A DNA stretch of 64,000 nucleotides, taken from positions 48,536 through 112,535 of the forward strand of contig NW_014040345.1 in NCBI RefSeq assembly GCF_001186125.1, in the 5' to 3' direction. The first letter of the stretch is position 1. Each line of letters opens with the position of its first letter. The stretch comes from Sphaeroforma arctica JP610 (taxonomy: Eukaryota). Shown piece by piece: positions 1-51,627 of this stretch. Made by a program: the position numbers and the translations under genes. The notes beneath the pieces were generated by a model that saw only the letters and a program-made list of their open reading frames with translations, searched no databases and had not been told where the DNA came from.

Positions 1-2
1 TA

Positions 3-2374
3 ATTTCCATCGAAGTTTACACCGACGCGAGCAAGCCGTCCGACGCTGTGTTCCAGATCTCGGCGTATACAAGTGAGTCGGAGCAGGTGCTGTTTGCCCT
101 GGATGGCTGTGACGCCGACAGGCTGCCAGCCATTGAGCTGCGCTCGTTTGACACAGAACCCAAGCTCATTGCGGCCTTCCTGGCGTACATCCACGAAGCT
201 CGCATCAACGTCATTACCGGGTGCAACACGTTTGGCTTTGATTGGGAATATATACTCGGAAGGTGTGCCCAGTTTGGCGTGTCGACTATGGGGTCCTCGT
301 TAAATGGGGTCAGCCAGTCTTCGACGGCCAGTGTCCGGTGGTCATCGTCAGGCGCCGGTGTGGTGGACATCCAGTACCTCAAGATGCCGGGCATAATGTG
401 AACATTTTCAAGGACATGTTCAAGCGCTCGTCGTACAAGCTGGACAGCGTTGCGGCCGACTTTGTGGGTGACCACAAGGACCCCATCACCGTGTCGGACA
501 TCTTTGATGGCTACGAGACAAGCCTCGACACCAAGAGCACCCTGTACACGGATGTGGGACTGTACTGTGTGAAAGATTCGGCCCTTGTACATGTGCTGGC
601 CCACAAGGTCACAGCCCTCATCTACCTGGTGGAGCTGTCGCGCGAGTGCAGCGTGTCCATAGACACCATCCGCATTGCCGGGCAGCAGCATCGCGTGTTT
701 TCAAATATGTACCAGACATTTGCGCCCCGGGGAATTATCCTCAACTACCCTAAGGCCATGCATGTTTCGGGTCGGGACACGCTGGGTGAGTGCCAACGAT
801 CATAAGGAAAATGTGCTGGCCGAGAAAATCAAGATGGCCAAGCGCAAGATTGTCGACGATCGACGATCTGGACTTTGCGTACGAGCCTGAAGAGTTTGAC
901 GAGAACGAACTGGTGGCCGCCAAGTACGAGGGCGCCTGTGTGCTGGAGCCTGTGCCGGGCCTTTATTACAACGTGCTGCAGTACGACTTTGACTCGTTAT
1001 ACCCCAGTGTACTCATGGCCTACAACATCTGCTACAGCACGTACCTGAGCACCGAGCCGCCTCCAAACATGGTCCCGCAGATGTACCACACTGTCAAGTG
1101 GACGTCCAAGGGCGGCGATGAGAACATCCACCACTTCCTCAAGGAGCCGGAGGGCATTGTCCCCAAGCTGCTGCGCGACCTGCTGGGCGTTCGCAAAGCC
1201 GTGAAGAAGATCCTCAAGTCGACTGAGCTGTACACGGTGCAATACAACGTGCTCGACAAGCGGCAGCAGGCGCTCAAAGTGTGCGCCAACTCGATCTACG
1301 GGGTGCTTGGAGTCCAGAAGCACGGCATGCTGCCGCTCAACGAGGGGGCCAGCAGCTGCACGGCGCTTGGCCGAATGTCCCTGGGTATTGCCGTGGCCAA
1401 GTTTGAGGAGCTGGGGGCCACGGTCGTGTACGGTGACACGGACTCGTGCTATGTGACGTTCAACGGTATTGCGGCCGATAACTTTCCGGCGCTCTGGGCT
1501 CCCGCAACGGCCACTGAGAAGGCACTGGAGGCGTGCTTCCCATAAACCCTAAAAACGAGACCATTATATTTTCAAAACGAAGACCTACGTGGCCAACAAA
1601 GTGCTTGTTGAGAAGACGCCATCGGGGGTGACGGAGCTTGTTGCAGTCCCGCCGGAAAGAGATCTCATGGTCAAGGGGCTGACGAAGCGGACCACCGCGC
1701 TTGTGATGAGGGACATCTTTATGAATATGGTTATCAAAATATTCAAAAAGGTGCCCTACACAAGCCTGGTTGAGGACCTGGCGGGGCAGATCCGCCATAT
1801 CTCCCATAACACGATGCGCATCCCACCCCTGTCGTTCTGTAAGAGTGTCCAGGTCAAGGACGCCAAGCACTACAAGATCAGGCCACTCTCCGAGAACCCC
1901 GTGCTGCTGACCAAGCGGCTGCGTGATCTCGATCTACCCGAGTCGACTACGGAGGAGTGCGAGGCTTACAAGCGTACGTGCCTGCCGGGACACATCCTGG
2001 CGAGTGTCAAGATGATGGAGCGGGGGCAACAGATCAGAGCTGGTGACCGTATCGCAGTTCTTGTAGTCCGTGGGGCTCCCAAGCAGCGCCAGCAGGACCG
2101 GATTGTGGACCTTGACTATTTCCAGGAGTCCAGAAAAAATCCCGAGCTGCCACAGTTTTCAATTGACACGGACTACTACATCAATTCCATTGTCAACCCG
2201 CTGGCCGACATCTTTTCCACTGTGTACAAGGTGGACAAGGCCATGGTCAAGGAGGTGTCTATCAAGCGGGGCACATGTCCAACACTACACAAGACTCCGG
2301 AGGACAAGGCGAACGCCGTAGTGGGCAAGGACGGGCGGACCAGAGTGCTGACCCAGTCGACGCTCCAGTTTTAG
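3..2374 (+). pseudogene. polB: Family B DNA polymerase (viral PolB), frameshifted, 5' end outside window
   Basis: ExoII GCNTFGFDWEYI (48..401), SYKLDSVA and ExoIII YCVKDS (242..805). Motif A YDFDSLYPS, motif B KVCANSIYG, motif C YGDTDS (790..1545). C-terminal VKGL...DTDYYINSIVNPL (1589..2374). At least 4 frame breaks, no introns. Confidence 0.95.
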
Positions 2375-2439
2375 GATGTTGTATTTTTATTTTTACAATA
2401 AACATTTTTAATTCTATTTTCTTTTTTTATAGATATTTT

Positions 2440-3294
2440 CTAGAACTCCGTACCCACCAGCCCGTTCTTGGGCGTGTATGGTCGAAGCAGCGCAAATTGA
2501 AGTCGAAGCAGCGCAAATTGAAATTCGTCGGGTACGTTAGTAGCTGCAAAACGTGCCTCCTCAATGTGGCGGGCATCTACCGGCAAAACAAAGGACTCAT
2601 CCTCCATGTTGTGCAGCATGCACAGCTGCGACCTAGCTAGCACAATGCGCTGGATGTGTACACGACGCTTGAGACTAGTGCGGACGAAGAACTTTGAAAC
2701 GTTGTATTTTGTCGCTTTGCTCAGGCTACTTTCAGCAATTGCTGTTTCAATGAGACTGCAGCTGGCTAGGTAGAAGGACTGCAGAAACTCATCCATTTCC
2801 TTGACTATATAGAGTTGGTCGGCAAACAAATACACCACCGTGGCGACTCTGGAGGGCTCGATCGACGCAAGTTTGGCGATCTTTCGGATATAGCCATTTG
2901 CCACAGCTTGGCGACTACCCTTGATGTTCGCGGCGCGTTGCAACTCGCGCAGGGGCACGACCTCAGCATAGTTTGGTTGCAGGCTGACTAGTAGCATAGA
3001 CATGATATCTCGTTTGTGGGGCTGTGGTATTTCTAATCTCTGGTATAAAGTGTAGTCGAAGGCCGGGACAGGTGTGGCCTGGCGGACAATGAGCTCTCTC
3101 TGGCGACTCAAGGTTGACTCGTTGAACATGTCTATAAAGTGTCTGGAAAAGTAACTTGGCTCTAGTTTCGTCATCAGGTATTTATTGACAATGCGTGCAA
3201 CTAGTTCTCGTTCGCGGACACTACTGACCAGCGAGTAGCTGGTAATGTGGCTGAACTGCGCACGGAACGTATCGGGAAAGGGGAGTTGCGACAT
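2440..3294 (-). CDS. Hypothetical viral protein (284 aa), open frame with a 21-bp in-frame duplication at 2481-2522
   Basis: ATG preceded by A-rich TAAATAAATA like neighbouring viral genes; fills the space between AT-rich spacers; no recognised domain. Confidence 0.65.
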   Translation of the reverse strand: MSQLPFPDTFRAQFSHITSYSLVSSVRERELVARIVNKYLMTKLEPSYFSRHFIDMFNESTLSRQRELIVRQATPVPAFDYTLYQRLEIPQPHKRDIMSMLLVSLQPNYAEVVPLRELQRAANIKGSRQAVANGYIRKIAKLASIEPSRVATVVYLFADQLYIVKEMDEFLQSFYLASCSLIETAIAESSLSKATKYNVSKFFVRTSLKRRVHIQRIVLARSQLCMLHNMEDESFVLPVDARHIEEARFAATNVPDEFQFALLRLQFALLRPYTPKNGLVGTEF

Positions 3295-3349
3295 TATTTA
3301 TTTATTAAAATCATCGTATGCAAAGTCAAACACTAATGAAAAAGGAAAA

Positions 3350-5401
3350 TCAGTTTTTCGCGTCTACCGGCATATTGTCCGTCTTATCATCCAGTATCGC
3401 GTCGAGCGAGTTCTTCTGGGCCATGTGCTCAAAGAAGCCCGAGGCACACCCATCATGCACATAGTACTCCTGCGACTCAAGGCTTGCTGTGTACAGGCGG
3501 TACTTGACAAACTCGTTGCCGACCAGAATGTCATTCATGATGGTGGTCTCAATGATGCGCTCCTTCGTCACGTCGCCCCGGACGTACAGGTTCACCGCTA
3601 TGTGCTTGGCGTGGTCAATGACTGGGATCGCCATCTTAACCACGTAGCGCTCGTCCTCAAAGCGAAGCCGAAGTGGACTGGTCATGTTGAACGTCTCAAA
3701 GAAGGTGCGTATGCGTTTCCAGCTCACATGTGTCACAACCCGCTCCAAAATGGGTACCTGGTTGGCGTAGTGGATAAACTAGTGGGAGCTCAGGACCAGT
3801 GCGCACACAAAGGCCTTCTTGGACATGATCATGGTTAGCAGGGGGCCCGCCCGTGGACGGATTAGTTCCCAGGCCTCCAGCCACTTCTGGTTCATGGACG
3901 AGTTGGCGCTGCCATTTATGAGCACCGACATCACATTGCCCATCCCCATGCCGGACTTGTACGAGTGCGCGCGACTTGCATACGTGGCATCCAGCATCAG
4001 CATAATGGCCATATCCTTTAGGGTTTTACGTTGTTACCCGCCATAATGTCCTCGGCCCACATGTTGACCCTCTTGGACCTTGCTGTGACCACATCAGAGA
4101 GCTGGATGAACTTGAAGAGGCTGATGCAAAACTCAATGTCTTCCCCCAGCAGCTGTGCGGCCTGTGTGATGAGCTTGGGGCGCGGGGGCCCGTCCGTGTC
4201 TTTGCCACGGTTACACAGCTCCTCACTGGCCGGGCGGAGATCTAGTGTTGGAGGCCAGCATGTTGCACAGCATTGCATCGCGATTTAGGTACGGGATAAT
4301 GGCCTGCTTGGTGTTGTGTAGCATGATGATCCTGTTCTTGGTGCGCGTGAGCCCCACATGGTGGGTATTGGGCACCTTGAGCGGATCGGCGTCGCCTAAA
4401 CCCTAAAACCCCTAAAATCGGTCCTCGTCCTCGTCGTCCTCGTTGCGGACTGTCATGTCGTCGGACGGCACGTCAATGGGAAACTTAAAGTCTGGTGACC
4501 GCACCAGGTAGCTGATAAAGGTGGAGATGGGCGAGGGCCGGGGGCTGTTGTGCTTGAACGAATGGGCTGTGTGTCGGTCACTGCCGTTGTAGACGCAGCG
4601 CAGCTGCAATGGTTAGCTTGAGGTCCCTGTAGAGGTCCTGCTCGGGGTACGTGGCGTCGCCGTACACAACGTACTCGGGCAACTTGGTGTTGCCAGTCCC
4701 GGTTATAACGTTGGGGCTCTGGGTACTGGTGTTGATGAACTTGCACACGCCGTCTGGGACCCGAAATCTCGTTGAGAGCATGAGGTGGGTCCAGGGCTCG
4801 TTAAAGTACAGCTCGGGCTGGCAAAAGTACGTGTCTGAGGCCCCAGTTGATGGTCTGCAGCGAGTCGCCCACCAGAACCTTCTGGGTGTGCCCGGTCTGG
4901 CCACCGGCAACGGAGCGTAGGGCGTAAAAGTACAGGGGGGAGAGGTCCTGGGCCTCGTCAACAATGACCACGTCGTAGTGGATGTCGAGGGGGTCCTCAA
5001 TAGCCACCATGAGCTGGAGGTCAGTGACAACCGAATACAGCGAGTGGAAGATATGGACGTCCACCGCAAGCCGCCGCCGCCCTCTTGCGCGTGTCCGTTT
5101 TGAGCCACGATGAGTAGGCTAGAATGAGGATCCTTTTTCCTATGGCCTCGCGACTGAGGCGGTCAACGATGGCCAGCATGGTGAAGGTCTTGCCCGCACC
5201 GGCACAGGCCATGAGGGTGACTTTGTCGCCGCGGGCAACGGCATCTATGGCCATCTGCTGCTCGGCGGTCGGGGCTCGGAGGCCGTGTCCGTGGGGTGTG
5301 GGTTGGTGGGAGGGTGCGGGTGTGCGTGTGAGGTTGGGTCGGGGGGCAAGTGTGATGGGTGTGTTATCCACGGGCATGACTGGTTGAGTAGCAATCAACA
5401 T
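3350..5401 (-). pseudogene. SF1 (UvrD/REP-like) helicase, multiply frameshifted
   Basis: Walker A ACAGAGKT, ILAYS, FHS, Walker B IVDEAQD, motif III VGDSLQTI, LSTRFR. Motif VI-like HHVGLTRTKN read at ~4335-4375. Downstream fragments (4018..4278, 3779..4012, 3350..3748) are inferred to be its C-terminal extension. Confidence 0.85.
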
Positions 5402-5536
5402 GGTTGTGTGCTGTAGCTGTGTGTTGTTTGTAATGTAGATGTGCACATGTAAACTGAATTGTGGGCCTTGCAAACACGCATGTATATTGAAAATTCAATT
5501 ATTCATTTTATTTTTATATTTTTGAATGCTCATAGA

Positions 5537-6920
5537 CTAGGACTGGCTGATCGACCCTTGGACGATTTTTGGTTTGTTTTGGAGTTTCTCGTCCAGCAGC
5601 CCATGGTAGTATACCTCGTAGTTCCCGCGCTGCATATCCGCATACGTCACCTTGGCCACATACTCTGTGTTGGGCTTGGTCTTGTCTGGGCGCAGCTTGA
5701 CAAACTCAAACTGCCCAGCCTCGTACCTATACTCGGCAATGCAGTCCTTCGTAAACCGCGCGTGGAACGGCACCCGCTTGTCTTCAAATGGCACCAGGCC
5801 ATCGCGGGTCCCAACTATCAGCACAGAGTGCTTCTCCCTATCGGGCAGCGCCTCCACTGGCCTCACCCGAAAGTCTATAGACTGCAGCTTCTGTGGCTTG
5901 AACTTGATCACCCCGCCGGCGTACACGCTCGCCAGCTTGAAGCACACCCCGTCGTGCACTGCGAGGTCCAGCCCCCCAAACAGCTCCCTGTACATGCCCC
6001 CTGGGTATGTCTGGATGATCTGCAGCCTGTACTTGTCCACGGCCACGGTACCGTCGGGACCCAGCATCGTCTGCAGCATTGCGCGGCGGGCCGCAAAGGG
6101 CTTCTCAATCCACACCTCATTGTGCACCATCACCAGGTCCAGCACGTGCACAACGTCTCCACACACCTCGCAGTCCAGCACCGTGGCCCTGCTAGGCCTA
6201 CGAACCGCTGTGACGCCTCGCCAATGGGCACCACCTCGCCCGTGATGTACACCAAGTACGCGAGGTCACCACACCACCAGCAGGGCGCGCGACCCGTCGT
6301 ACTTGTACATGACCACTGAGTCGGGGGCAATGGGGGTTGTTGGCAACAGCGTGCCCGCCTGTGCGATGGGGAAAGTCAGCTTGCCCATGATGCGCATCGC
6401 CAACAGCTCACCGTAGATGGTCTGTGACCACACACGGTCCGGGATCAGCACCTCGCGTACAAACGTATTGACGCTGGGCACAAACTCGTCGTCCTGGAAC
6501 CCAAACTCGGACATTGCAACGCCGCCCTCGAGCTCAATCTCTATCATGTACATCTTGAACCCCGCCGTCATGGTATCCACAAACTCGACGGTGTACGTCG
6601 CCGGCCCCGCGGACAGCTTGACACCTGAAAAATTGGTGGTGGTCTTGATGCGACTCACACCGACAAGTTCATCCTCTCCAACTGATTCACTGGGGGTCTT
6701 TGATGAGACGTAGTACGCCCAGTGGGCAAACCTAAACAGCGCAAGTGTGCGCTTGCACTCCCAGACTGTGTTGTTGTCGTCAAACGACGTCACTGAGCGC
6801 AGCCCATCTTTAGAACCATTGTGCATCGTCTGCGTGAGCCGCTTCTCGTACACGGGTGGCCCATTGAGATGGCGCATGCGATACATGCACACGGGCCTCA
6901 ATCTCAATTTTCTCGGACAT
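5537..6920 (-). pseudogene. mRNA capping enzyme: TTM-type RNA triphosphatase + guanylyltransferase, frameshifted
   Basis: Start MSEKIEIEAR (6920; ExExR) and YMIEIELE (triphosphate-tunnel motifs). GTase motifs I KYDG, III LDCE, IIIa VLDL, IV HDGVCF, V KFKP..SIDF and VI RPDK..PN spread over three frames. Confidence 0.88.
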
Positions 6921-7009
6921 GGCGGTTGCGTTAATCTTTTTTTGTTGTTGCATTTGTATATACATATATACGTGTATACAAATGATAGCTTTTCGTTTTT
7001 TTTCTTCTT

Positions 7010-7710
7010 CTATACAAGCGTGGTCTCAAGGTTGTTGGTACTGTATCCACACTGCACGGTAAACGACAGGGGGTACGCGGTGTTGTACTCGGCCACCGTC
7101 ATGGGCTTGTGGGCTGCCTGTCCTGGCGTATGACCCCAGAAGAAAGGGAAGAATACATAGAACGGGAATATGGTAATGTGCGAAAATATGCTGTACAGTA
7201 CATGGTCAAACATTAGCGGCCCAGTCCTCTCAAATGGATGAGCCGTAGGGCACCCCCAGAAGAACATAGGTTGCAGCTTCAGCAGCGTGTAGGTGATCAG
7301 GTTGCCGCGCGAGCTCCCAATCACACTATTTGCGAGCCCCCGGGCATTCTCCTTCTCTTGTCCTACAAAAGGCCTGTGCGGTTGCACGCTGTAATGATGG
7401 ACCCAAAGTCCTTGCCCAGATCCACCATGTCGCTGTCAATGTAGATGCCGCCATACTTGTACAAGATCTCAAGCCGCGCAACGTCTGCCTTACCACAGTA
7501 CTGTGGTTCAGCGTCAAATACTGCACTGTTCTCCGTTAGCACACTGCGGATATTGTTGTTGTCCCAGAGCATGTACTCGAACCCGTTTGCCGCACACCAG
7601 GTCCTAAACGTCGCCATCCACCCAAGCACAGCTGCTGGTGCCTCTTTTCCATGTTGCACACGGGCATTTTGTGCCAGCCCGTTGATGCGGTCCACAAGGT
7701 CCGAATGCAT
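7010..7710 (-). pseudogene. GT32 / DXD-motif glycosyltransferase, one frameshift near 7370
   Basis: ADVARLEILYKYGGIYIDSD signature (7363..7710), continuing into LANSVIGS in 7010..7387. Confidence 0.85.
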
Positions 7711-7751
7711 TTTTTTTTTGTGATTTATTGAATGTTCTATTTTATTTTATT

Positions 7752-8481
7752 TTAAAATGAGTACCGTTTATTCTTCTTATTATCCATGACCATAAAGGCT
7801 ACTACACCCAATACGACCAACACAGCAACTCCAACACCCCCAATAAGAAGCCAGTTTGTCTCTGGCTCCTCTTCTTCCTCCACTGAGGCAACTGCAATTG
7901 CTTCCACCACTTCGCCACTGACACCCTCGTCGTCCTCCTCCTCCTCAACAACCTCTTCCTCTACTACCTCTTCTGTTGCAACCGTGTTGTTGGCGATAAA
8001 GGCGTTCAGACCACTTCCACTGGTCACAATCCTGAACCGGAATTTGTCCACAACGACACCACCCGTAATATCGTCTGGTACAAACGTCTGGTTAGAATCC
8101 TTGGTCGCAAATTTCACGCCGTCGTCCGTCTTTATTCGGACGACGGACTCATTTGTATCACTGGACACTGGGGTCACTGTGAAGACGGTTTTCGTTGAGC
8201 TATCCGATGACACAACCACAATCCCCTGCTGAAAGTATATATACCCACCGTTGATACTCATGGTGTACTTGTTGGGCTTGTCACTGACAGGGTCGAACCG
8301 TATGTCGACTCCATTGGTACCGTACCCCAGACGACCCCAGACGCTGGGGTGTTGCCGAGAGTGAACTGACGTTCATGGCACCCTTGTTCAGCTGTAGATC
8401 GATGCGGCCCACGGCTTTATCCAACACGCTGAGTTGCTTCTCAAGACCCGTGTTGAGTAGGGCATAGTCTATCGTGCTCAT
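7752..8481 (-). pseudogene. Membrane protein with acidic stalk and C-terminal TM helix; probably one gene split into 8281..8481 and 7752..8261
   Basis: E/V-rich acidic tract, hydrophobic WLLIGGVGVAVLVVLGVVAFMVM, basic tail. The fusion of the two ORFs is inferred. Confidence 0.55.
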
Positions 8482-8606
8482 GACGGTTTACACACAGATG
8501 GTTTATATAGACTTGGAAAAAATGGGTTTTTTATTAAATAGATTAAAAATTCGAACAGACCTTGCAAGTTTTTGTTTTTTTTCTTCAAGTTCTAAACGGC
8601 TAATGT

Positions 8607-8822
8607 ATGAATAAAATGAACAAAAAATCCGCAAAGCGTAGCACCAAGGTCATCCAAAGGGAGATTGATGACCGCGTAATCGAGATCCAGGCGCCAACGT
8701 CCTCCATCAACTGGTCACTCGTGTTTGCACTCGCTGTCCTGGGGCTCTCTTCGATCCTCGCCATGGTTGCGTATACCAGGCGAATCCCAAATATCAACAG
8801 TCAAAAATCACGCCCATCGTAA
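8607..8822 (+). CDS. Small single-TM hypothetical viral protein (71 aa)
   Basis: ATG after AT-rich spacer; one hydrophobic segment WSLVFALAVLGLSSILAMVAY. Confidence 0.45.
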   Translation: MNKMNKKSAKRSTKVIQREIDDRVIEIQAPTSSINWSLVFALAVLGLSSILAMVAYTRRIPNINSQKSRPS

Positions 8823-10247
8823 AAGCTCGACGTTATGTTTTGGATTATACCTCATGTAGTGAGATTCCCAGAAAGAGTGAGACCCAAGCTTAAAAGACGA
8901 CGGGTACGGCTTGGCCCTGTAGTAAAACAGCCGATTCCTCCAGTTGTTGCCGTAAACATTGCGATCTCCAACGAGGGCCATGAATGGAGTCGCAGTGACA
9001 ATATTGAAGATTTCGATGAACAGTTTTTTAGATGGCACAAAGCTAAAGAACTCATCGTAGAGTCGATCGCGTTCGGATACTGGGTCCGTACCCATCGTGA
9101 TGATGGCATTCATAGATTTGCGCACCTCTGGTGTCACATTCGTATACTGCTGCCCACACAGAAGTATAAAGATCGAGTAGTGGCGAGAGTTGTTGAATAC
9201 TGCCGATAGCTTGTTAAGCTGCGAGCGGTAGCCACTAATATCGTCCATTACCATGGCCATGTTGCTGCGGGTGTGTAACTCACCACCAATATGATTTTCC
9301 CGCTTAACAACATTATACTGCTTCTGGGTATTTGCGACGCTCTGGATGGTTTCGGCCGTCACCTCATCTGTCACATAGTGGAACGCTTCTGGGATGATGG
9401 GGGCCCAATCGTTAGATACAGCGGACTTATTCCCGGTAAACAGCACTGTAGAGTCAAACATGCCCCGCTTTTCATACAGCAGCGACTTTAAATTGTCGAG
9501 TTGTGGGTCACCGTGTCGTCGGCGAAGCAGTAAAGGCCGTCTATAGACACCTCCACCCCGACATACGGCTCCGCAGCAGAGATGTTCTTAGTCACACGAA
9601 CATATCCACCAATGCCACTGTCTGGTGCACGGGCATACTGAATAGTGCCGTCCGAACACGTTTTACAGGCATAGCCGTCGTGGTAGCTGAGAACGGTGGA
9701 TGTTGTGGACTCTCATGGTTGCGTGATTGATACGACAATGAATAAACGTTGTCGTCAGCACATCAAACGTTGAAGGATCAAGTCGGCTGTAGGCACGACA
9801 GTTGGATACCCTTCATACAACCCGTAGGTAGGTACATCGAGGTGTGAGAAGTACACTTTCCGCTGTGCACACGACAATCGACTCGGTTTTGACATTGTAG
9901 AGCACGAGCTTGTGGTCCCCCGTAACCACATATGGATCACTGTCAGCCTGGTGGATCGTGTACATCTGATCGATACCGCGGACCTTGTTGAGGACCCGGC
10001 GTGGGCGGATGTCAGGACACAGGAGCAGGTCCCCAACAACCACCTTGTCAATCCGTTGAAGAACCCCTGAGCACATCTTGACGAGAGTGTCGGGCGCCAT
10101 GCACTTACCAAGGCCACTGCGCCCACATACGAGGACCTTGGACCCGTCCATGGACTCTTCGTCACCCCGTTTCCAGGGACTAATACTGTCGGGATTCCAT
10201 TCTTTGAGATGAAGTTTGTCCAGTGTTGTATCGGTGGTTTTGGACAT
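8808..10247 (-). pseudogene. A32-like virion packaging ATPase interrupted by an intein
   Basis: N-extein KLHLKEWNPDSISP...VLVCGRSGLGK. C-extein S-T-I then (frameshift) KSLLYEKRGMFD. Walker B MVMDD, A32 motif NSRHYSIFILLCGQ, C-terminal LFYYRAK..FKLGSHSFW. Confidence 0.92.
9500..10103 (-). mobile_element. Mini-intein (Hint domain) in the Walker A of the A32 ATPase, internally degraded
   Basis: Block A CMAPDTLVKM begins right after GK (10103). Block B YVVTGDHKLVL. Blocks F/G YVGVEV..DGLYCFADDTVTHN end at 9500, followed by Ser+1. 604 nt, internal frameshift/stop, no LAGLIDADG seen. Confidence 0.92.
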
Positions 10248-10360
10248 CGTGTGTGTATGTGTGTCTTTTTGTTTCTGTTCCACCTCGACTATAACGTATG
10301 TTACACACCTAAACTTGGTTTTTTATATATTTTGCTTTTGAATATAATAAACTGTCAACT

Positions 10361-11041
10361 ATGGGGGGTAATATATCAAAGAGTTTTCGCGAGCAGACAA
10401 TGACCATGGTGAGCGATGTGTTTGTGTCCGCATCTACAGACATATCGAACCAGACAAGCAGCAACAACATCTCCCTGCAGACTATAATCTTTAATGGCAC
10501 GTATGGCGGCAACTTTACCTCGTCACAGACGTCAGACATTACCTCCAAGACGGTGCAGGTGGTTGTCAACAGCACGTCGAACGAGGTCACGAGCGCCATA
10601 GAGAACATGCTGATTGACTGGTTCGAGCAGAATCTGGATCAAACCCAGGATGGACTGACAACGTCCAAGAACAAGTCGGAAGTCGTGGACATTGTGAGGC
10701 AGTCCGTCCACTCCAACATTGACGCCGTCTTCAAGACCAGGGTCGACAACACACTAAAGTCTACCAACTCGTCCACACAGTCTTACAGTTTTGTGGGTAA
10801 GGTGGAGGGCGACTGCCAAATGGACCAGACGTCAATCATTGACTCCTTGTCTGAGCAGTTTGCCACGACACTTGTGCAGAATGTGCTGGACTTGCTGGGG
10901 GTCATCACAACCGACAAGGAGTCCACCCTGAACACGTCCCAGGAGAACACCGGCTCGTTTAGCACAACCATGCTTATCATGCTGGCCATTATTGCGGTTG
11001 CGATCCTGGCCATTGTCATTATATTTAAATTCAAGAAATAG
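10361..11041 (+). CDS. Myristoylated membrane protein (poxvirus L1R/F9L-like NCLDV family), intact 226 aa
   Basis: MGGNISKS N-myristoylation motif, S/T/N/Q-rich body, C-terminal TM (MLIMLAIIAVAILAIVIIF) plus KFKK; adjacent to A32. Confidence 0.75.
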   Translation: MGGNISKSFREQTMTMVSDVFVSASTDISNQTSSNNISLQTIIFNGTYGGNFTSSQTSDITSKTVQVVVNSTSNEVTSAIENMLIDWFEQNLDQTQDGLTTSKNKSEVVDIVRQSVHSNIDAVFKTRVDNTLKSTNSSTQSYSFVGKVEGDCQMDQTSIIDSLSEQFATTLVQNVLDLLGVITTDKESTLNTSQENTGSFSTTMLIMLAIIAVAILAIVIIFKFKK

Positions 11042-12648
11042 CTATTGTTTCATATAGATGTTGACGGTTTTCTGCACGTCTTGCATCATAGCCATAAGGC
11101 GTTTGTTCACATTATATATGTATCCAATCTGATCTGCGAGGTCAACATGAACGACCTGGAGGTCTGGGGTTGATTGCGATTTGGGTTGTGGGGTTGATTG
11201 CGATTTGGGTTGTGGGGTTGATTGCGATTTGGGTTGTGGGGTTGATTGCGATTTGGGTTGTGGGGTTGATTGCGATTTGGGTTGTGGGGTTGATTGCGAT
11301 TTGGGTTGTGGGGTTGGGGTGCTTTGTGATCCGACCTTGTCTGAACCTGATGTCTCACATTCATTACTCTTGCACCCCATGACGTTTGTCCCCCACATCC
11401 ATTCTGTCCATGTTTTTGGACGCTGCTCCCCAATAGTGACTGCGTGGAATAGTATGGTCTTGGTACGTAACGTAGTTAGAGGTATACTAGTGCTGGTGGT
11501 TTTGGCCTTCTTCGTCAGGGCGGAAATCTTTGCCCACAGCTCATGTAGACTCTCGTCGGCACGACTGGCTTTCAGGGCGTTCTTGATATCCCCCCTCTGC
11601 CCCATAATGAGTTCACACACATCCTTTGGAATCTCCTTGTGGTCCTTGAGATATGTCAACAGCTCATTTGCCTCATCGACCAACTCGCTACTCGTGGGTC
11701 TCTTGAGTGCCTTAATCACCTCTTGTGTACTTAATATAGAAGAAGGGAGAACTGAACTCTTCTTATCAGCCCTGTGCCGCTTTCTGTGCATTGTGACACT
11801 CTCAGCGCGGTCCCAGAGCTCAAGAGTTGTCCTGTCCATTTTCAGAATTTTTAGGTCGTTAATAATTTGGGCAATATCCTTCAGCGCCGTCTTCCTCTGG
11901 TTGTATGAACTGTCTGCATTTGTAATATCTCTAGCATCGTTGCGTAGCCTATTGTAGAACGCTTCAATCTGTGGATTCCCAACAGGCTCCGGGATATCCA
12001 TTTGTCCGTACGTCTTTAGATGGGCTTCCTCTGCTGTCGCACCACGCCATACCGGTTGAACCATGGTAATTTGTCCTTCTCAGCCTTCATCTTGGTAATC
12101 CACTATTCCAGAATACGCTGATCATTGTGAAATACCCGTTTAAAATAGCGGACTTCCGTTGTGTTCCCGCTAGGTTGTATGCGCTGGTTTGGTATATTAA
12201 CCAGGGACCATGCTTCGTGCAGGGTATCTGGAGCCTCATTGTCTCTCAACATCTTTAAGATGTGGGGCTTCTGGTTGTTCACATATGTTGCTATAGGTTA
12301 AGGTATCGACTCCATGCTGTCAAGGTACATTTTCAGCAGGCTGGCCCGATTAACAAGGTCCTGGAGAGAATACTCTAAATATTTTGCAATTGCCAGCGAC
12401 ATGTAAAATAATATCTTGTCTACAAGTTCGTTGTACGTCGCAGAGGTCTTCGCCCCATCGGAATCGTTCAGCTTTGCAAACAGCGATTCCCAATTCTTGA
12501 TCACCCGGGGGTCGTATTTGATCTTTTTGAGATCCGCGATAATGTCCTCCACCTTGGTGACCACCTCTTGTATTTGGTCAACTGGCAAAGACGCAACATA
12601 TGTGCTAATATCACGTGGTGCGTCTGACAAAATGATTTTTTTACTCAT
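11042..12648 (-). pseudogene. Orphan viral gene, tandem paralog A (disrupted)
   Basis: 12298..12648 + 11042..12064 align by eye to paralog B (MSKKIILSDAP/MSKNISLSDAP; PEPVGNPQIEAFYNR; DKKSSVLP). In-frame TAA after ESIP. Confidence 0.7.
11167..11310. repeat. 24-bp coding tandem repeat x6 (PQPKSQST on - strand)
   Basis: GGGTTGATTGCGATTTGGGTTGTG repeated six times. Confidence 0.95.
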
Positions 12649-12662
12649 TTTTTATTTATAGA

Positions 12663-14126
12663 TTAAAAAAAACTATGAATCTCTATGATCATGTCGTGTG
12701 CGTTGTTAATCCGAGCTGTGAGGTCGGAGAGGTCAGAAAGGTCGGCATGAATGGCCTGGAGGTCGTTATGGATGCCCTGGGTGTCTACTTGCGCGTTCTG
12801 TTCGGAGACCATGTTGCTGTCTGATGTGAATTCGTCTGGGCTTGATACCTCATACTCATCACTATTGTACACTGGGGGATTTGCATCCCATATCTTTTCT
12901 TTCCATGTTTGTGGCCGCTGCTCTTGAAAATTGACTGCGTGGTACAGTATGGTCTTGGCACGTAACAGTTTTTTTGGCCTACTAGTGCTGGTGGTGTTGG
13001 CTCTCTTCGTCATTGCGGTAATCTTTGCCCACAGCTCCTGCAGACTCGGGTCGGCTCGACTGGCATACAGGACGTCCTTGATATCCTCCCTCTGCACCAG
13101 AATGAGTTCATACACATCCTTTGGAATCTCGTAGTGTCCCTTGAGATATTTAAATAGCTCGCTTGCCTCTTCGAGCAACTCACTACTCGTGGGCCTCTCG
13201 AGAGCCTTAATCGCCTGTTGTGTACTGTATATCGCAAAGGGGAGCACTGAACTCTTCTTATCAACAGTGCACCGCTTTGTTGCCTTCGTTATACTCGCAG
13301 CGCGTTTCCACAGCTCAATAGTTATTGAGTCCAATTGCAGAGTCCTTAGGTCTTGGATAATTTTTGCAATATCCTTTATTGCCGACTTCCTCTGGTTGTA
13401 TGAATTGTCTGCATTGTAATATCTCTGGTGTCGTTGCGTACCCTATTGTAGAACGCTTCAATCTGTGGATTCCCAACAGGCTCCGGGTTGTTCAGTGTCT
13501 CGTACGTTTTCCTGTAGACGTTCTCCACCTTCGCCCCACTCCGAAATATATATCTGTTTATCCATGTCTCATTGTCCTTCTCGGCCTTCATCTTGGCAAT
13601 CCACTGTTCTAGGATCTGCTGATCATTTTCAAATACCCGTTTAAAATGGCGGGTTTCAGTCGTGTCCACACCAGGTTGTACGAGGTATCTAGGAATATCA
13701 ATCCGCGACCAGACGTCGCGCAAAACTGGTGGAACCGATGCGGGGCATGTTGTGATTCACATATATTGCTATAGGTTCAGGTATCGACTCCAGCGTGTCA
13801 AAGTACCTTTTCAGCAGGCTGGCCTGATTGACAAGGTCCTGAAGGGAATAATTTACCTGTTTCGCAATTTCTAGCGATGTGTAAAATAGTATCCTGTCTA
13901 CTTGTTTGTTGTATGCTGTGGAGGTATTAGTTCCATTGGAATCGTTCAGCTTCGCAAGCAGCGATTTCCAGTTCGTGATCACCCCGGAGCTGTATTTGAT
14001 CCTTTTGAGATCCGCGATAATGTCCTCCACCTTGGCGACCACCTCTCGCGATTGGTCGACTGGCAAAGACGCAACAGATGTACCAATAACACCTGGTGCA
14101 TCTGACAAACTGATATTTTTACTCAT
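12663..14126 (-). pseudogene. Orphan viral gene, tandem paralog B (disrupted)
   Basis: Fragments 13698..14126, 13376..13723 and 12663..13334 are collinear with paralog A. Confidence 0.7.
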
Positions 14127-14172
14127 TATTTTTAATTTTATTTTTATTCAGTCGTAAAAAATATATAAATCG

Positions 14173-15080
14173 CTATTTTAGTTTCTGCAGCAGCCGGAGA
14201 CTCATCAGCCGAAACCTTCGCGGGTACACCCGGTGCGTCATGGTGTTGCATCTATACAAGACGGCCTGCCCCTCGGCCGTCCCACCTACCACCAACCACC
14301 GCATCCCCGCTGGGATCTTGCTCGTACCTTCCAGTAGACTATCCCATCGCGCCAACTCAGCACAACGGGGCAGGAACTGGCCATAGAGGGGCACGAGGGT
14401 ACTGTCTGCCGCGCTAGGAGCCGCCGGGCCCATCATGACCAGGGCCTTCGCGAGATAGTCCTCGGGATCTACGGGCGTAAGGACCGTGGCCGAGCTCAGG
14501 ACCACAACCGGGGCACAGCCAAACATGTCTTTCGTGTAGTGGTCCATGCCCCTGGGTAGCTGGGTCTCGTCTGTGTACATCTGCTGCAGGAACTTGTTGT
14601 AGCGGCACACGACAAAGCGACAACCACCGGCCTTTACCGTCCCCCCGGTGACAACGTAGCACATGTTGGCCCACTGGTCCTTTGCAATCCCGTACGTGAG
14701 ATGCAACGCAGATGGTCTCAGGGGCGCGTCAATCTCGTTTGACAGCGCATAGTATAAGAAGGGGACAGTGTTCGGAGCCATGCGCAACCACGACACGGTC
14801 CCGGCAGTGGGGGGGGGGGGGGGGTGGTGGCGGCAGAGTCTCGTGTGCACAGTAACCGTGGTCGCTCGGTGCGCCCAGTGGGGGCAGGGTACTGGAGCCG
14901 CCCCCGTGTGGCTCGGGGGTTTTTAAAAGAAGCTCAGTGCCAGAGTCGTTGTCCCACTCCATGACCTCCGTGGCATGCTCTAGGGGTGGCATGGGGTTCA
15001 GCAGTGGCAGGGGTTTTAGGGTTTAGGTCATGGAGCTCGAGTTCTACGTCGAGGTTAAGATCAGTATTCAAGTCAAACAT
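14173..15080 (-). pseudogene. Hypothetical viral gene, frameshifted
   Basis: ATG at 15080 (MFDLNTDL) continuing through 14729..14992 and 14173..14850; breaks include a poly-G run near 14810; no domain recognised. Confidence 0.5.
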
Positions 15081-15124
15081 TGTAAAAATGATTTGTAGTC
15101 TCACGCGCAATGACCATATATATC

Positions 15125-15212
15125 CACCTGGGCACCAACGCCCACTGAGCATGAAGTGACACCTGGGCACCAACGCCCACTGAGCATGAAGTGACACCTG
15201 GGCACCAACGCC
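15125..15212. repeat. 35-bp tandem repeat x2.5
   Basis: CACCTGGGCACCAACGCCCACTGAGCATGAAGTGA units start at 15125, 15160 and 15195. Confidence 0.95.
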
Positions 15213-15506
15213 GTATGTGCGTCATCGCACCGACGGTCACATTAACCGCGATTATTGTTTCACAGTAACACCGTGCTCCGATTCCGTATACCCAGTGACG
15301 TTTCGTACTTTGATGCACGTAATCTCTGTGAGAATCCAGGCCTAGAAATCCTCGTACAGCGAAACGCTGCTTTTGCAGACTTTTCACCCGCCGTTGACAA
15401 GTCGGGGGTCAGCATTATCACCTGCAGACTGAAACTACTTCGTGAATCGCATCCCCAAACGGCGTCTTGATCGAGTCGGGGAACTCGCCGCCGCTTGGCC
15501 TGATCT

Positions 15507-16062
15507 TGTTGCGCTCGTACTCTAAAGCAGTACGTATACTAAAAACGTACTCTTAATAGTACAAGGAACTTAAGTTTCCCAAATGGTTTTAAATGGTTTT
15601 ATTAATTAATACCTTTTCCATTTTACATATCAGATATTTGGACAAAGCCATTACAAGGCCCCAGTAAAATACCAAACATAAGGGTTGGTCTAGTTCTAAT
15701 AATAGAACTATGTTTACTTTCCAACTTTATTTATATCTGAATACTTCGGTAGCGAGATGGCTCAACCGAATATAGGTTTCTAGGGACTATTAGCGTAACC
15801 TAGTTGATTCTCCGATCAGCCAACCAGATGTGCCAGTCTGATGAAGGCTAAGTCGGTAATTCTTGATAAGTGGCAAGTTATTGGTTAAGACAATAACTAA
15901 GGACATCAAGAGTAAAAATAATTTCTAATAGAGCGACAACGAAACACTAAATAAAATTCCTTCGGTACTGAGAAGATTATATATAGGCAATGTCTCAGCC
16001 TCACAATCCGTTTATTTACTTTTATATTTTCACGATACTTAGAATTTACCTAAGGTATTAAT
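15507..16062 (+). repeat. 5' LTR (truncated, with internal deletions)
   Basis: Matches ~22703-23413 (e.g. GGAACTTAAGTTTCC, CCGATCAGCCAACCAGATGTGCCAGTCTGATGAAGGCTAAG, CACGATACTTAGAATTTACCTA) with substitutions and several indels. Confidence 0.88.
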
Positions 16063-16162
16063 TACTTAAACTACTTAAGCGTAAAGGTAGATTAACTACC
16101 ACAAAAATTTTCTTGTCCAAGCTAGTCCTTAAGAGACAAGCTAGTAGTCATAAATTAAGATT

Positions 16163-18367
16163 ATGACCAAGAAAGACAATAATCCTTCTAAGGAGCATAA
16201 AGCTGAAAAGAAGAAGATGGAGAGAGAAGCCGCCAACGCTACCGCAGCTACTGCTGCCGCAGAGGCAACCGCTGCCGAATCTGACAATAATAGTCAAAAG
16301 GACAATGCTTCAGATAAGGATGTAGCCACTCCGATTAAGGAGACTACTCCCACTGACAGAGCCCGAGGGCCAACTATTGTCTCAACTTCAAAGCTTGCAT
16401 TTACGAAGCCAAGAAGTCAGACAAGGGACACGTCACAAGACGCCCCAACCTATTCTTCTGACGAAACTCAGAATGGAAAGTCCCCAATTATAGGGGACAA
16501 GGACAAATCTCAGAAGGAACCTATTATGGAACCAGAAGAGGAGGCAAGCTCAAGTGGCAAACCCGAATTCACGTCCGAGACTACTAAGCCAATGCACATA
16601 AGTAAGTTAATTACTGAAAACGCTGATCTTAAGAATCAGTTAGCTACCATTATGAAAGACTTGACTGTCGAACATGTAAATCAATTATATAGATCAGGAA
16701 AACATGCACAGCACTTACGCGAGCATGTTTCCCCGGGCATTACTGAAGCCCTACAGAAGTGGACAGAACGTCGACAGGCAATTACGCCCGAAGAACGTAA
16801 AGACTCGAGCGCTACACCTGTGGCATATGAGCCAGATGTGCTCATCGTATCTATACCTTACGAGGTATTACCACCAGAAATTCAGGCTAATTACTCACCT
16901 GTTCTGACACCCGGCTGTGAGTCACCCGTCCTTGAGGGTATTATAGACCCAGAGGCAGGTAGAAATACTCCGCCACTTTTACCCAATTGGGATGACAATC
17001 GTCGGAAACTAGTTAAGACTGTGTATGTTATCCAGACGCATGAATCACCTAATATTATAATATCAACCACTATCCGAGGAACAGAACACCAAAAGGCCTC
17101 GACCATGGACTTTACAAGGGGTAATAAACACCCCCGTAAACGTGTTAACGAAATCGAATTTAATCGCTTCGATCGCACAGCACTACATCAACCCGCAGAG
17201 GATTTTCACTCTGACGAGGTGACCGAACTTAACAAATCGGTCGACGATTATACCATTAAAATGGAAATCGCCCACGATGCGCATCATGCTGATGATGTAG
17301 CATACTTTGCGAATATGACTGCGATTAAGCAAAAGCGCATTGATCAGTTACTTCAGGCCCAACGTGGACAAGACCACAGAGACAACCAGAAGTACAAGGG
17401 ACAGATCAGTCGACTTAAGTCGAATTGGGATGCCAACAGTAAGCAGGTCAAGTTTATAAAAAACCATGACCTCGACACGCTAACCCGTACGCTTAATGCG
17501 TTTACGGTCATGCTAGAGACGAATGATATCGCTCCCCAGCAATGGATCTCTACTTTAATGCAGACGTTTGACCCTACAGGTACAAGTTATTCGATCATAC
17601 AGCGACAACAACATGAGCTAGACACTTGTCGTGACTGGCCAGCTGTGTGTTGGTTGGTTACATCCTTGTTAAGTAAGGACATGCGTAGCCCAGGACTGAG
17701 TTCAATTTTAACTGAACCAGTTGAGAACACGCCCATTCAAAGTTATATTCTGAAGCTAGATGCTGACCTGAAACATTCAGATATAGCGAAGGACAAGGCA
17801 CAGCGATGGTACGAGTTCCTGGCTATGCCCGTGTTCTGTAAGAACATAGGGAATAACAACCGTGAGAGCCTGTACACCGAGTTGCGACGTAAACACGCGA
17901 CTGAGGCTCGAGACAGGGGACATGGAACAAAGTTTCATCTATCCCGACTTACGTGGGAACAGTTTTATGACACTGTATCCACCCTTTTCCCTGCACACCG
18001 AGTAACATCGAAGGGAAAAGTGGCTGTTAAGAAGCCGCGGGAGTACACCGATCAAGGATACGTATCCAGGCAGACCTCAAACGAGAAACACCAACATACA
18101 CGTGCTCGCGACCCCACTCTATCCACGGGACCCAATAAACGGGCACGCGCGGAGGCAAAGGACAAGGAACCTCCATTTAAAGAGATTAAGAAATGTTCCG
18201 ACGCACAGCGTGGGTATGACAGGTACCAATTGACCCATAACAGTTATTGGAATGGCAGGCATGCATCCGCCTGTACACACTTTCCTATTAAGTGCGACAA
18301 GTGTGAGAAGACCAATGGCTATCACACTAAGTCTTGTGACAAAAAGCCCAACATTAAGTTGGAGTGA
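16163..18367 (+). CDS. gag: Gag-like protein (734 aa)
   Basis: Long ORF after the 5' LTR; C-terminal Zn-knuckle-like CDKCEKTNGYHTKSC; directly upstream of the protease. Confidence 0.8.
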   Translation: MTKKDNNPSKEHKAEKKKMEREAANATAATAAAEATAAESDNNSQKDNASDKDVATPIKETTPTDRARGPTIVSTSKLAFTKPRSQTRDTSQDAPTYSSDETQNGKSPIIGDKDKSQKEPIMEPEEEASSSGKPEFTSETTKPMHISKLITENADLKNQLATIMKDLTVEHVNQLYRSGKHAQHLREHVSPGITEALQKWTERRQAITPEERKDSSATPVAYEPDVLIVSIPYEVLPPEIQANYSPVLTPGCESPVLEGIIDPEAGRNTPPLLPNWDDNRRKLVKTVYVIQTHESPNIIISTTIRGTEHQKASTMDFTRGNKHPRKRVNEIEFNRFDRTALHQPAEDFHSDEVTELNKSVDDYTIKMEIAHDAHHADDVAYFANMTAIKQKRIDQLLQAQRGQDHRDNQKYKGQISRLKSNWDANSKQVKFIKNHDLDTLTRTLNAFTVMLETNDIAPQQWISTLMQTFDPTGTSYSIIQRQQHELDTCRDWPAVCWLVTSLLSKDMRSPGLSSILTEPVENTPIQSYILKLDADLKHSDIAKDKAQRWYEFLAMPVFCKNIGNNNRESLYTELRRKHATEARDRGHGTKFHLSRLTWEQFYDTVSTLFPAHRVTSKGKVAVKKPREYTDQGYVSRQTSNEKHQHTRARDPTLSTGPNKRARAEAKDKEPPFKEIKKCSDAQRGYDRYQLTHNSYWNGRHASACTHFPIKCDKCEKTNGYHTKSCDKKPNIKLE

Positions 18368-21300: not shown

Positions 21301-22532
21301 ATGTTCCATGGCGCAGGGTCACCATTGATCTGGCTGACCTGCCCACGTCCGAGCACACAGGCGACCGTTACGTATGCCACTTTTTTGATGTGGCGTCACG
21401 GTTTAACTTGCTCTATCCATTAAAGGATAAGAATACGCAGACCGTGGCCGAATTATGTTGCCAAGTCTTTGCTGACCACGGGTGGCCAGGTATTATGTGC
21501 ACTGATAACGGTAGTGAGTTCTGCGATGACGTAATGGAATTGCTAGTACTCGTACCAGGCATATGCCATAAGAGAGGTGTGCCATATAAGCCGCAAACGC
21601 AAGGCGCGAATGAAACGCGCCATAGAAGACTTAAGTTCTTCTTGCGTACTACATTAACGGATGATGCAGATGATTAGTCATATCACCTTAACTGTATACA
21701 AACACAGATGAACGAGTGTGCTGATCCGGTTACAGGAACTACACCCGCTCACTATTTTCGTGGCAGATATAGTGAGTTACAAATCCCTTTTAACAAGGAC
21801 GAACATGATCACCATGAGTTACCATGGTTAGAGAAGGTACAACGTATTTATAACGTTGTATATCCTTGCTTGCGAGAATTACGCAATATAGCCCTATTAA
21901 AAAGGCAAAAGCGTTGGAACACTACCAAGAAGATACCAGAGTATCAGGTTGGTGACAGAGTTAAAATCCGTCAACGCAATTCCGATGCTACTGTATTAAC
22001 ATCTAAATGGATAGGTCCATATATAATCTCGGTAGCAGACACTAAAAGTGAAACGTACGAGGTAAATAACCCCGATGGTTCTAGTGCGCTTAATATGGGC
22101 ACAAGTCGTATCCCGACTACAGAGATTATACTCGCAAGAAGACATGACTCTAATGCCCCTCTTGATCGTTCTGAATTTAAAGACATTATATGGAGAACGG
22201 ATAAGGGAGGCTATACATACTATCGTAAATGCTTTATAGACGGTACAATAGCTGAGTTGACTTCAGATGCTTTCGATAATCAAGAGTATTTAAAAGCCTT
22301 TAATCGAAAATGGCGTAAATGCCTGCATAAGTCACAAGCTGAAAAAGATAGCATGTTTCCATCGTCTGAAGGCACAGAAGTTAAAACTTATCCGCCTACA
22401 TCATTTATCCCGAGCTTTCATGCTCATCCTTCATATGTGCTTAAGACATTGAAGCGTAAGAAACATCTAGTCGACCACCACGGACCTACCGGACCTAAGC
22501 CCAAAACTCACAGGGTAACCGAGAACGCTTAA
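18368..22532 (+). pseudogene. pol: Pol: protease, RT, RNase H, N6-adenine MTase, integrase
   Basis: PR ALIDPGSEISCI; RT FTTIDL and YIDD (19424-19435); RH IATDASD...DMLSR. INT HRLKH...CTDC, VTIDL, TDNGSEF, PQTQGANE, KWIGPY. Frameshifts near 19840 and 20400, in-frame TAG at 21675. Confidence 0.93.
20257..20660 (+). other. Dam-like (DIRS-type) DNA N6-adenine methyltransferase domain within pol
   Basis: DWKCNPRWF...FGPHTIDMFA (SAM-binding motif, 20320-20334)...DAFK, then after a 1-nt frameshift IDLSEHNAWANPPWQLI (catalytic NPPW 20430-20441)...ITLCSP....PWLNKL. Confidence 0.85.
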
Positions 22533-22668
22533 CTTCTCCGCTTGAGAAACATTAACTATATGTTAAGCTACTTAATGTTTCGACCCGTTTTTCCTTTCTC
22601 GCTTTTTGACCCATAATCAGCTTGAGTGAGCAACTTGCTTCTCATGGGTCTTAAAGCTGGGTGGGAGC

Positions 22669-47727: not shown

Positions 47728-47775
<48 letters not shown>

Positions 47776-49417: not shown

Positions 49418-49487
<70 letters not shown>

Positions 49488-51580: not shown

Positions 51581-51627
<47 letters not shown>

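What the first reader, a model, noticed from the sequence alone, without database searches (positions are those of the whole stretch)
1..15506. Endogenised, decaying giant-virus genome segment in a eukaryotic chromosome
Seen: at least 15 kb of intronless, closely packed genes including PolB, A32 ATPase, capping enzyme, L1R-like protein and SF1 helicase. Most are frameshifted, and they are contiguous (no N gap before 29.4 kb) with a host-type retrotransposon and then spliced host genes. Established: this gene set marks Nucleocytoviricota. Inference: the A32 N-terminus (LKEWNPDSISP..GSKVLVCG) and the myristoylated protein look more iridovirus/marseillevirus-like (Pimascovirales) than mimivirus-like, so this may record an undescribed virus lineage infecting an animal relative.
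Basis: partly seen in the sequence, partly recalled or inferred. Interest (0 to 1): 0.85.

Follow-up and report, generated by a model that had tools for sequence, protein, structure and literature searches.

The report
Broken giant-virus relic in ichthyosporean genome
A 15-kb stretch of broken giant-virus genes, likely integrated in the chromosome of a single-celled relative of animals (probably Sphaeroforma arctica), probably matches a viral island already noted in 2017; what looks new is that its virus has no close sampled relative and that telomere-like repeats sit at four of its gene breaks.

Summary
Confirmed. Window 1-15,515 holds about 12 intronless Nucleocytoviricota-type genes (PolB, intein-split A32 ATPase, capping enzyme, L1R-like protein, SF1 helicase); 9 are broken. 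Contigs from four studies match 1-11,194 with no differing letter, at depth close to host DNA in three, so the breaks are real and a free virus is unlikely. No record bridges the neighbouring LTR element. Host: an ichthyosporean, most likely Sphaeroforma arctica. PolB falls deep inside Pimascovirales, outside Iridoviridae, PM_01 and Pithoviridae. A32 agrees once one long branch is removed; its only close relative (57%) is S. arctica SARC_04065 on another contig, a second related insertion. The core claim is in print: Gallot-Lavallee and Blanc 2017 list S. arctica DNAP and ATPase of the Irido/Marseille cluster in small islands. Added here: a 2024 ViralRecall screen missed it; that species lacks 5mC; decay is mostly by frameshift (25 of 30 called breaks); all four telomere-like AAACCCTAAA motifs in the block lie at breaks, suggesting telomeric insertion during double-strand-break repair. 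Already known, moderately interesting.

The parts
1..2374 (+). Family B DNA polymerase pseudogene, N-terminus left of the window; breaks near 396, 760, 858, 1543 and 1570
   Evidence: Pfam; frames and homologue comparison; breaks; two pieces exist as annotated proteins on the source contig
1543..1554 (+). Telomere-like insert TAAACCCTAAAA where homologues have the conserved stretch between FP and the KKRY motif; about 25 nt net missing
2440..3294 (-). 284-aa orphan ORF, no break called
   Evidence: no family hit
3350..5401 (-). SF1 (UvrD-like) helicase with a probable long C-terminal part (3350-4281, no AT-rich spacer between them); at least 6 breaks
   Evidence: Pfam; motifs; spacers; breaks
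4017..4028 (-). Telomere-like motif at a frameshift
4395..4417 (-). Telomere-like insert TTTTAGGGGTTTTAGGGTTTAGG carrying two in-frame stops just before helicase motif VI
5537..6920 (-). mRNA capping enzyme, predicted triphosphatase plus guanylyltransferase, no methyltransferase part; 3 frameshifts
   Evidence: triphosphatase part rests on recalled motifs only (searches gave nothing)
7010..7710 (-). DXD glycosyltransferase, one frameshift
   Evidence: Gly_transf_sug E 5e-11
7752..8481 (-). Acidic protein with C-terminal hydrophobic segment; frameshift at a 10-nt tandem duplication near 8324-8343
8607..8822 (+). 71-aa ORF with one hydrophobic segment, open
8808..10247 (-). A32 packaging ATPase with a mini-intein in Walker A; 3 breaks; same intein site as SARC_04065
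10361..11041 (+). L1R/F9-like myristoylated membrane protein, open (chance of escaping breaks 0.23)
11042..12648 (-). Orphan gene, copy 1 of a tandem pair (78% nt identity to copy 2), broken; 18-nt repeat array at 11165-11316
12663..14126 (-). Orphan gene, copy 2, broken at other places than copy 1
14173..15080 (-). Orphan gene, at least 2 frameshifts
15010..15027 (+). Telomere-like motif GGGGTTTTAGGGTTTAGG at a frameshift
15516..23440 (+). Ty3/gypsy-type LTR retrotransposon (gag, protease, RT, RNase H, integrase), high copy; left LTR truncated, no target-site duplication
47191..56821 (+). Spliced host eIF4G-like gene (MIF4G and MA3 pieces on separate exons)
61455..62933 (-). Host GLUT-like sugar transporter used to place the host
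63684..63778 (.). Head-to-head array of irregular T3-5AG3-4 repeats, the same unit as the four inserts in the viral block

Best explanation
The block is a broken fragment, at least 15 kb long, of a giant DNA virus that likely branches deep within Pimascovirales and was likely captured into the chromosome of an ichthyosporean (probably Sphaeroforma arctica), where it appears to be decaying as neutral DNA. Shown: viral gene set, breaks identical across four studies, depth close to host DNA, host lineage, PolB placement. Inferred: capture by end-joining during an abortive infection (no integrase or terminal repeat is seen in the block); decay mainly by small indels of double-strand-break repair and slippage (deletions, 4-10 nt tandem duplications, and short telomere-type insertions at four breaks); later arrival or rearrangement of an LTR retrotransposon at the right edge; a second capture of a related virus that left SARC_04065. 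No gene here is shown to serve the host.
For: Gene set. Reality of the breaks: contigs of 4 of 4 runs (4 studies) cover 1-11,194 with 0 other letters and 0 gaps, three of them in one 11.1-11.2 kb piece; 20 of 24 listed runs from 7 studies hold the stretch or part of it, 15 at half of its words or more (one may be the source). Depth virus versus long host contigs: X3 61 vs 55-71, X9 35 vs 36-40, X13 124 vs 121-145. A virus with broken PolB, A32, capping enzyme and helicase could not replicate. Host: MFS best non-self hit 68% CFRG6395T1 (prefix recalled as Creolimax); window proteins sit in nr/EukProt on a 112,709-nt contig, SARC_04065 has the same sources on a 112,087-nt contig. Lineage: PolB inside the Pimascovirales-labelled clade 100/99, outside Irido+PM_01 100/98 under LG+C20; AU rejects placement outside it (p 0.0075) and inside Iridoviridae 0.0005, PM_01 0.0004, Pithoviridae 0.024, PM_06 group 0.006, with a Pandoravirales row 9e-6. 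A32 joins the Pimascovirales side at 92/97 without P0122 and shares the PM_01 N-terminal signature; Foldseek top hit is Marseillevirus LCMAC102. Motif: AAACCCTAAA 17 in window vs 0.15 expected; 4 in block vs 0.02; 4 of 4 within 20 nt of a called break against 8.5% background; 6 of 18 other frameshifts at a tandem repeat against 8.4% (p 0.003).
Against: No listed record bridges virus to host across the 7.9-kb LTR element, and the left LTR is truncated without a target-site duplication, so the local join could be an assembly artefact. Contig depth is a rough measure and run X1 varies 142-679 over host DNA, so it is uninformative. In the 46-row A32 tree the pair fell outside the Pimascovirales clade beside P0122, with a long-branch warning. 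The window PolB is a long branch (1.69), references were retrieved by likeness to it, there is no named Pol delta or labelled Marseilleviridae row, one bin labelled IM_01 fell inside PM_01, and the AU groups were named after trees had been seen. The host's true telomere repeat was not found in print. One of the four motif-break matches (4395) is made of stops that the motif itself supplies. Motif density in the block (4 loci in 15 kb) is not clearly above host DNA (5 loci in 41 kb). No major capsid protein or RNA polymerase gene lies in the window. ViralRecall found no reliable hit in S. arctica (PMC11244446).
Confidence: 0.85

Rival explanations
1. The viral block is integrated, but its join to this LTR element and these host genes is an assembly chimera; the true flank lies elsewhere.
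For: The LTR family is several hundred-fold deeper than single copy; LTRs are 92% alike with large indels, the left one truncated, no target-site duplication; listed contigs stop at 15,154 and none spans the element.
Against: Bins up to the LTR start have continuous near-single-copy depth; truncation and indels also fit age and later deletion. It does not change the endogenous reading.
Confidence: 0.2
2. The block is a co-cultured or episomal virus, not chromosomal.
For: No bridging record; GC 52% against 40-45% for host DNA; ViralRecall screen negative.
Against: About 30 breaks destroy core replication and packaging genes; letter-identical in four studies and near 1:1 depth in three; host-type telomere-like repeats inside its genes, rare in free viral loci (6 in 1.6 Mb).
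Confidence: 0.04
3. The host targets foreign DNA with breaks healed by telomerase-templated insertion, an active methylation-independent way to disable viral inserts.
For: 4 of 4 motifs at breaks, one replacing part of a conserved PolB stretch; S. arctica mCG 0.03% (PMC11244446 Table S4); indel-dominated decay.
Against: The same repeat occurs at 5 host loci in the window at similar density, and none in the LTR element; only 4 of about 30 breaks carry it; passive insertion at double-strand breaks is known from mammals (PMC7215372 abstract).
Confidence: 0.1
4. The donor is not Pimascovirales but a long-branch member of another order.
For: 46-row A32 tree; Foldseek also ranks pandoravirus and medusavirus ATPases in the top six; identities to all references are 33% or less for A32.
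Against: PolB AU tests, mixture-model trees, N-terminal signature, and the 2017 Irido/Marseille placement of S. arctica DNAP and ATPase.
Confidence: 0.12

Closest known systems
Sphaeroforma NCLDV islands, Gallot-Lavallee and Blanc 2017 (PMC5294986; seen: passages, sections 3.2 and 3.3, Table 1, supplement legends; Fig. S5 is a picture and could not be read)
   Same: S. arctica DNAP and packaging ATPase, Iridoviridae/Marseilleviridae cluster, grouped in small islands amid eukaryotic genes; S. sirkka has DNAP, MCP, ATPase, VLTF3. Probably this very island (about 0.85).
   Different: In the parts read, that paper gives no extent, gene list, decay pattern, read support or family-level test.
Amoebidium appalachense GEVEs, Sarre et al. 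2024 (PMC11244446; seen: passages, section on viral insertions, Tables S4 and S5 rows)
   Same: Ichthyosporean host, intron-poor gene-dense viral islands, partial core gene sets, secondary TE insertions.
   Different: Those are Pandoravirales/Mamonoviridae-related and silenced by 5mC; this one is Pimascovirales-like (AU 9e-6 against one Pandoravirales row), heavily frameshifted, in a species reported to lack 5mC and to be ViralRecall-negative.
Pimascovirales families PM_01, Iridoviridae, PM_06, PM_07 (labels from PMC8575486 supplementary table rows)
   Same: PolB clade; A32 N-terminal signature; intein-bearing A32 is also known in Marseillevirus LCMAC101.
   Different: Outside each sampled family; identity 36% or less over the PolB alignment; capping enzyme lacks the methyltransferase part that the PM_06 enzyme carries.
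Short interstitial telomeric sequences inserted at double-strand breaks in mammals (PMC7215372, abstract only)
   Same: Short telomere-like repeats at internal sites, with loss of flanking sequence.
   Different: Here the unit is irregular T3-5AG3-4, only 1.5-3 units long, lies inside viral genes, and no empty orthologous site is available.

Membership tests
Nucleocytoviricota | Family B DNA polymerase of viral clade | tested here: met
Nucleocytoviricota | A32 packaging ATPase | tested here: met
   Pfam over cut-off; Foldseek TM about 0.8 to viral A32
Nucleocytoviricota | Double jelly-roll major capsid protein, D5 primase, VLTF3, RNA polymerase | not testable with these tools
   none in the window; no genome held; S. 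sirkka has MCP and VLTF3 in PMC5294986 Table 1
Giant endogenous viral element | Same copy level as host DNA and stable across samples | tested here: met
   (three informative runs of four)
Giant endogenous viral element | Physical junction to host DNA | tested here: inconclusive
   only contigs available; none listed spans the LTR element
Giant endogenous viral element | Pseudogenisation and compositional contrast | tested here: met
   30 called breaks; GC 0.52 vs 0.40-0.45
Pimascovirales | Marker-gene phylogeny inside the order | tested here: met
   PolB 100/99 and AU p 0.0075; A32 met only after removing P0122; two markers, not the seven-marker set
Iridoviridae, PM_01, Pithoviridae (PM_07), PM_06 | PolB nested in the family | tested here: not met
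   AU p 0.0005, 0.0004, 0.024, 0.006, 1-4 labelled rows per family
Marseilleviridae | PolB nested in the family | not tested
   no labelled row in the trees
Polinton-like virus or adintovirus | Protein-primed PolB, terminal inverted repeats, integrase | tested here: not met
   PolB is the RNA-primed PF00136/PF03104 type; no inverted repeat in the self-comparison
Interstitial telomeric insertion | Unit equals the host telomere repeat | not testable with these tools
   same unit forms a head-to-head array at 63,684-63,778; no published repeat found
Interstitial telomeric insertion | Inserted at a break relative to an empty homologue | tested here: inconclusive
   shown at protein level for PolB 1543 only

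The most novel reading that the evidence does not exclude
Sphaeroforma is the host of an undescribed family-level Pimascovirales lineage that integrated at least twice, and, lacking 5mC, it inactivates such inserts by break repair that writes telomeric repeats and small indels into viral genes: a methylation-free route to tolerating giant-virus DNA.
Probability: 0.15. Interest if true: 0.75.

Novelty: already known. Interest (0 to 1): 0.42.

Why it matters
The element itself was flagged in 2017, but it is a concrete exception to the 2024 statement that no other screened ichthyosporean has giant-virus insertions, and it shows why: heavily frameshifted islands likely escape ORF-based tools. It names a probable host for a deep Pimascovirales branch with no close sequence in the IMG/VR, JGI or 1.84-billion-protein searches run here, and two related copies (57% A32, shared intein site) imply repeated infection. 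Because the viral reading frames are recognisable, the island also records the host's mutation spectrum, including likely telomeric insertions, in a lab-cultured model species where this can be tested.

Tried and rejected
No whole genome was held, so the left end and the SARC_04065 contig could not be read; contigs of three runs begin 6 nt left of the window. No RNA holder listed. Close free-virus relatives of the A32 pair: none in viral contigs or metagenome contigs; two broader A32 alignments were too variable to scan with. Orphan ORFs: no Pfam or NCBIfam hit, none in the few virus records held. Single-sequence fold of the triphosphatase piece failed (pLDDT 33); PDB search of it gave nothing; the Atlas was unreachable for the capping piece. 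Exact look-up of retrotransposon ORFs to name the host failed (7 of 10 proteins not in the collection). No virus-like match right of 15,080 against 2,544 ORFs from 165 loci. Assembly error as cause of frameshifts: rejected. Tiny introns or programmed frameshifting at the motif: one of four sites has GT..AG ends over 14 nt, the others do not, orientation varies, and PolB has lost conserved residues there. Domestication of the open ORFs: escape probabilities 0.16-0.62. The weak TcdA_TcdB Pfam hit (below cut-off) is the generic DXD motif, not a toxin. CpG depletion: none. Earlier scan notes: nothing. Searches for telomeric scars in viral inserts or an ichthyosporean telomere repeat found nothing relevant in listings.
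Full report
Observation. Stop-to-stop ORFs and Pfam show a gene-dense, intronless block from 1 to about 15,100: PolB in four annotated pieces, an SF1 helicase, a capping enzyme, a DXD glycosyltransferase, an A32 ATPase split by a Hint mini-intein in Walker A, an L1R-like protein and five orphan genes, about 12 genes in all, separated by AT-rich spacers. GC is 0.52 through 15,515 against 0.40-0.45 to the right. The first N run is at 29,468. The capping call rests on a PDB hit at E 0.003, a tblastn hit at E 7e-6 from the capping enzyme of a PM_06 bin and recalled motifs; the L1R call on the MGxxxS start and an Atlas score of 0.93. A Ty3/gypsy element spans 15,516-23,440; its left LTR is truncated and no target-site duplication is seen. 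Spliced host genes follow from about 35.6 kb.

Are the breaks real, and is it integrated? Logan contigs of 4 of 4 runs from four studies match 1-11,194 with no other letter and no gap. Of 24 listed runs, 20 from 7 studies hold the stretch or part of it (one may be the assembly source). Mean word depth over the block is 61, 35 and 124 in X3, X9 and X13, against 55-71, 36-40 and 121-145 on long host contigs; X1 varies too much to use. A codon-model walk frameshifts and 5 stops in 13,974 coding nt; 9 of 12 genes are hit, and the tandem gene pair is broken at different places in each copy. A genome with PolB, A32, helicase and capping enzyme all broken cannot be a replicating contaminant. What is not shown is the physical join: no listed record spans the multi-copy LTR element.

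Host. The sugar transporter's best non-self hit is CFRG6395T1 at 68% (the prefix is recalled as Creolimax fragrantissima). The window's own A32, PolB pieces and transporter are in NCBI nr, UniRef and EukProt on one 112,709-nt contig. Among 1.84 billion representatives the A32 C-extein has 945 hits at E 0.001 or better but only one close relative, P0050 at 57% (next 33% or less), which is SARC_04065 of Sphaeroforma arctica on a different 112,087-nt contig. It is open, 528 aa, and has an intein at the same site with 52-53% identity in both splice regions. I infer the host is S. arctica (about 0.9) and that it holds at least two related but distinct viral inserts; very old duplication of one insert is the lesser alternative.

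Lineage. PolB was read with X at each break and aligned to 45 proteins and 80 IMG/VR loci; two loci had no usable ORF and one row was dropped for gaps, leaving 123; subsets of 38 and 21 rows were used for IQ-TREE. Family labels came from supplementary rows of PMC8575486 (13 of 19 bins looked up were in the table) plus the named Megalocytivirus polymerase. Under LG+C20 the window lies in the Pimascovirales-labelled clade (100/99), in a 100/100 group with Iridoviridae, PM_01 and two unlabelled rows, but outside Iridoviridae plus PM_01 (100/98). AU tests reject placement outside the order (p 0.0075) and inside each sampled family (p 0.0004-0.024). Caveats: long branch, references chosen by likeness, no Pol delta or Marseilleviridae label, one IM_01 bin inside PM_01, groups named after trees were seen. 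A32 with SARC_04065 forms a 100/100 long-stem pair; in 46 rows it fell outside the Pimascovirales clade beside P0122 with a long-branch warning; in 26 rows without P0122 it joined the Pimascovirales side (99 SH-aLRT; 92/97 under C20) and its N-terminus matches PM_01. The model (pLDDT 91) ranks Marseillevirus LCMAC102 and an iridovirid first in BFVD, then a pandoravirus.

Decay pattern. Frameshifts outnumber stops five to one. Six of 18 non-telomeric frameshift calls sit at a perfect 4-10 nt tandem repeat against 8.4% background (p 0.003, post hoc). AAACCCTAAA occurs 17 times in the window against 0.15 expected, four times in the block against 0.02, and 6 times in 1.6 Mb of free viral loci. All four lie within 20 nt of a called break (background 8.5%); three are frameshifts, the fourth supplies its own stops. 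In PolB the motif stands where homologues have about 45 conserved nt and the window has 20. The same irregular unit forms a head-to-head array at 63,684-63,778. I read these as short telomeric insertions made during double-strand-break repair, as described for mammals (PMC7215372, abstract), with about 0.65 confidence; the host telomere repeat is unverified. With 4 loci in 15 kb of virus, 0 in the LTR element and 5 in 41 kb of host DNA, targeting of viral DNA is not shown.

What is known. PMC5294986 (passages, sections 3.2-3.3, Table 1, supplement legends) lists S. arctica DNAP and ATPase of the Iridoviridae/Marseilleviridae cluster in small islands among eukaryotic genes; Fig. S5 could not be read, so identity with this island is inferred. 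PMC11244446 (passages, one section, table rows) reports no reliable ViralRecall hit in S. arctica, mCG of 0.03%, and that species without 5mC rarely carry large inserts. PMC12344493 and PMC11286789 (passages) repeat the methylation link and do not mention these islands in the passages seen. Four searches for Sphaeroforma or ichthyosporeans with giant-virus terms listed no closer study.

Verdict. Real, endogenous, Pimascovirales-like and dead; known since 2017 at marker level. Added value: read support, a second related insert, a family-level gap, an exception to the 2024 negative in a methylation-free host, and likely telomeric scars. Interest 0.42.

Noticed in passing
window 63684-63778: Head-to-head array of irregular TTTAGGG-type repeats; shorter copies at 34085, 35498, 42467-42493 (inverted pair) and 53160-53220, weaker ones at 27914 and 44161. 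May reveal the host telomere unit.
   Followed up: partly
P0050 (SARC_04065), another contig: Open 528-aa intein-bearing A32 annotated as a host hypothetical protein; marks a second, possibly less decayed, viral insert.
   Followed up: partly
window 15516-23440: High-copy Ty3/gypsy family (depth several hundred-fold above single copy); this copy has stops and frameshifts between pol pieces; integrase C-terminal part not characterised.
   Followed up: partly
window 5537-6920: Capping enzyme appears to end after the guanylyltransferase at a normal AT-rich spacer, without a methyltransferase part.
   Followed up: partly
window 35600-46050 (- strand): Multi-exon coiled-coil host gene that reads like Bre1/RNF20 (recalled resemblance; no Pfam confirmation).
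   Followed up: no
window 23840-24375 and 25726-26270: Two short tandem duplications (92% and 71%) in non-coding DNA right of the LTR element.
   Followed up: no
window 28840: All four runs show one extra A here relative to the window, a probable assembly homopolymer error in host DNA.
   Followed up: no
L004 (GVMAG-M-3300012936-41): Bin labelled Imitervirales IM_01 carries a PolB nested in PM_01; possibly a mis-binned contig.
   Followed up: no
L081:2492-6343: 381-kb IMG/VR contig with a long-branch, intein-bearing, split PolB, the best-scoring hit to the window's core; not a supported sister in trees.
   Followed up: partly
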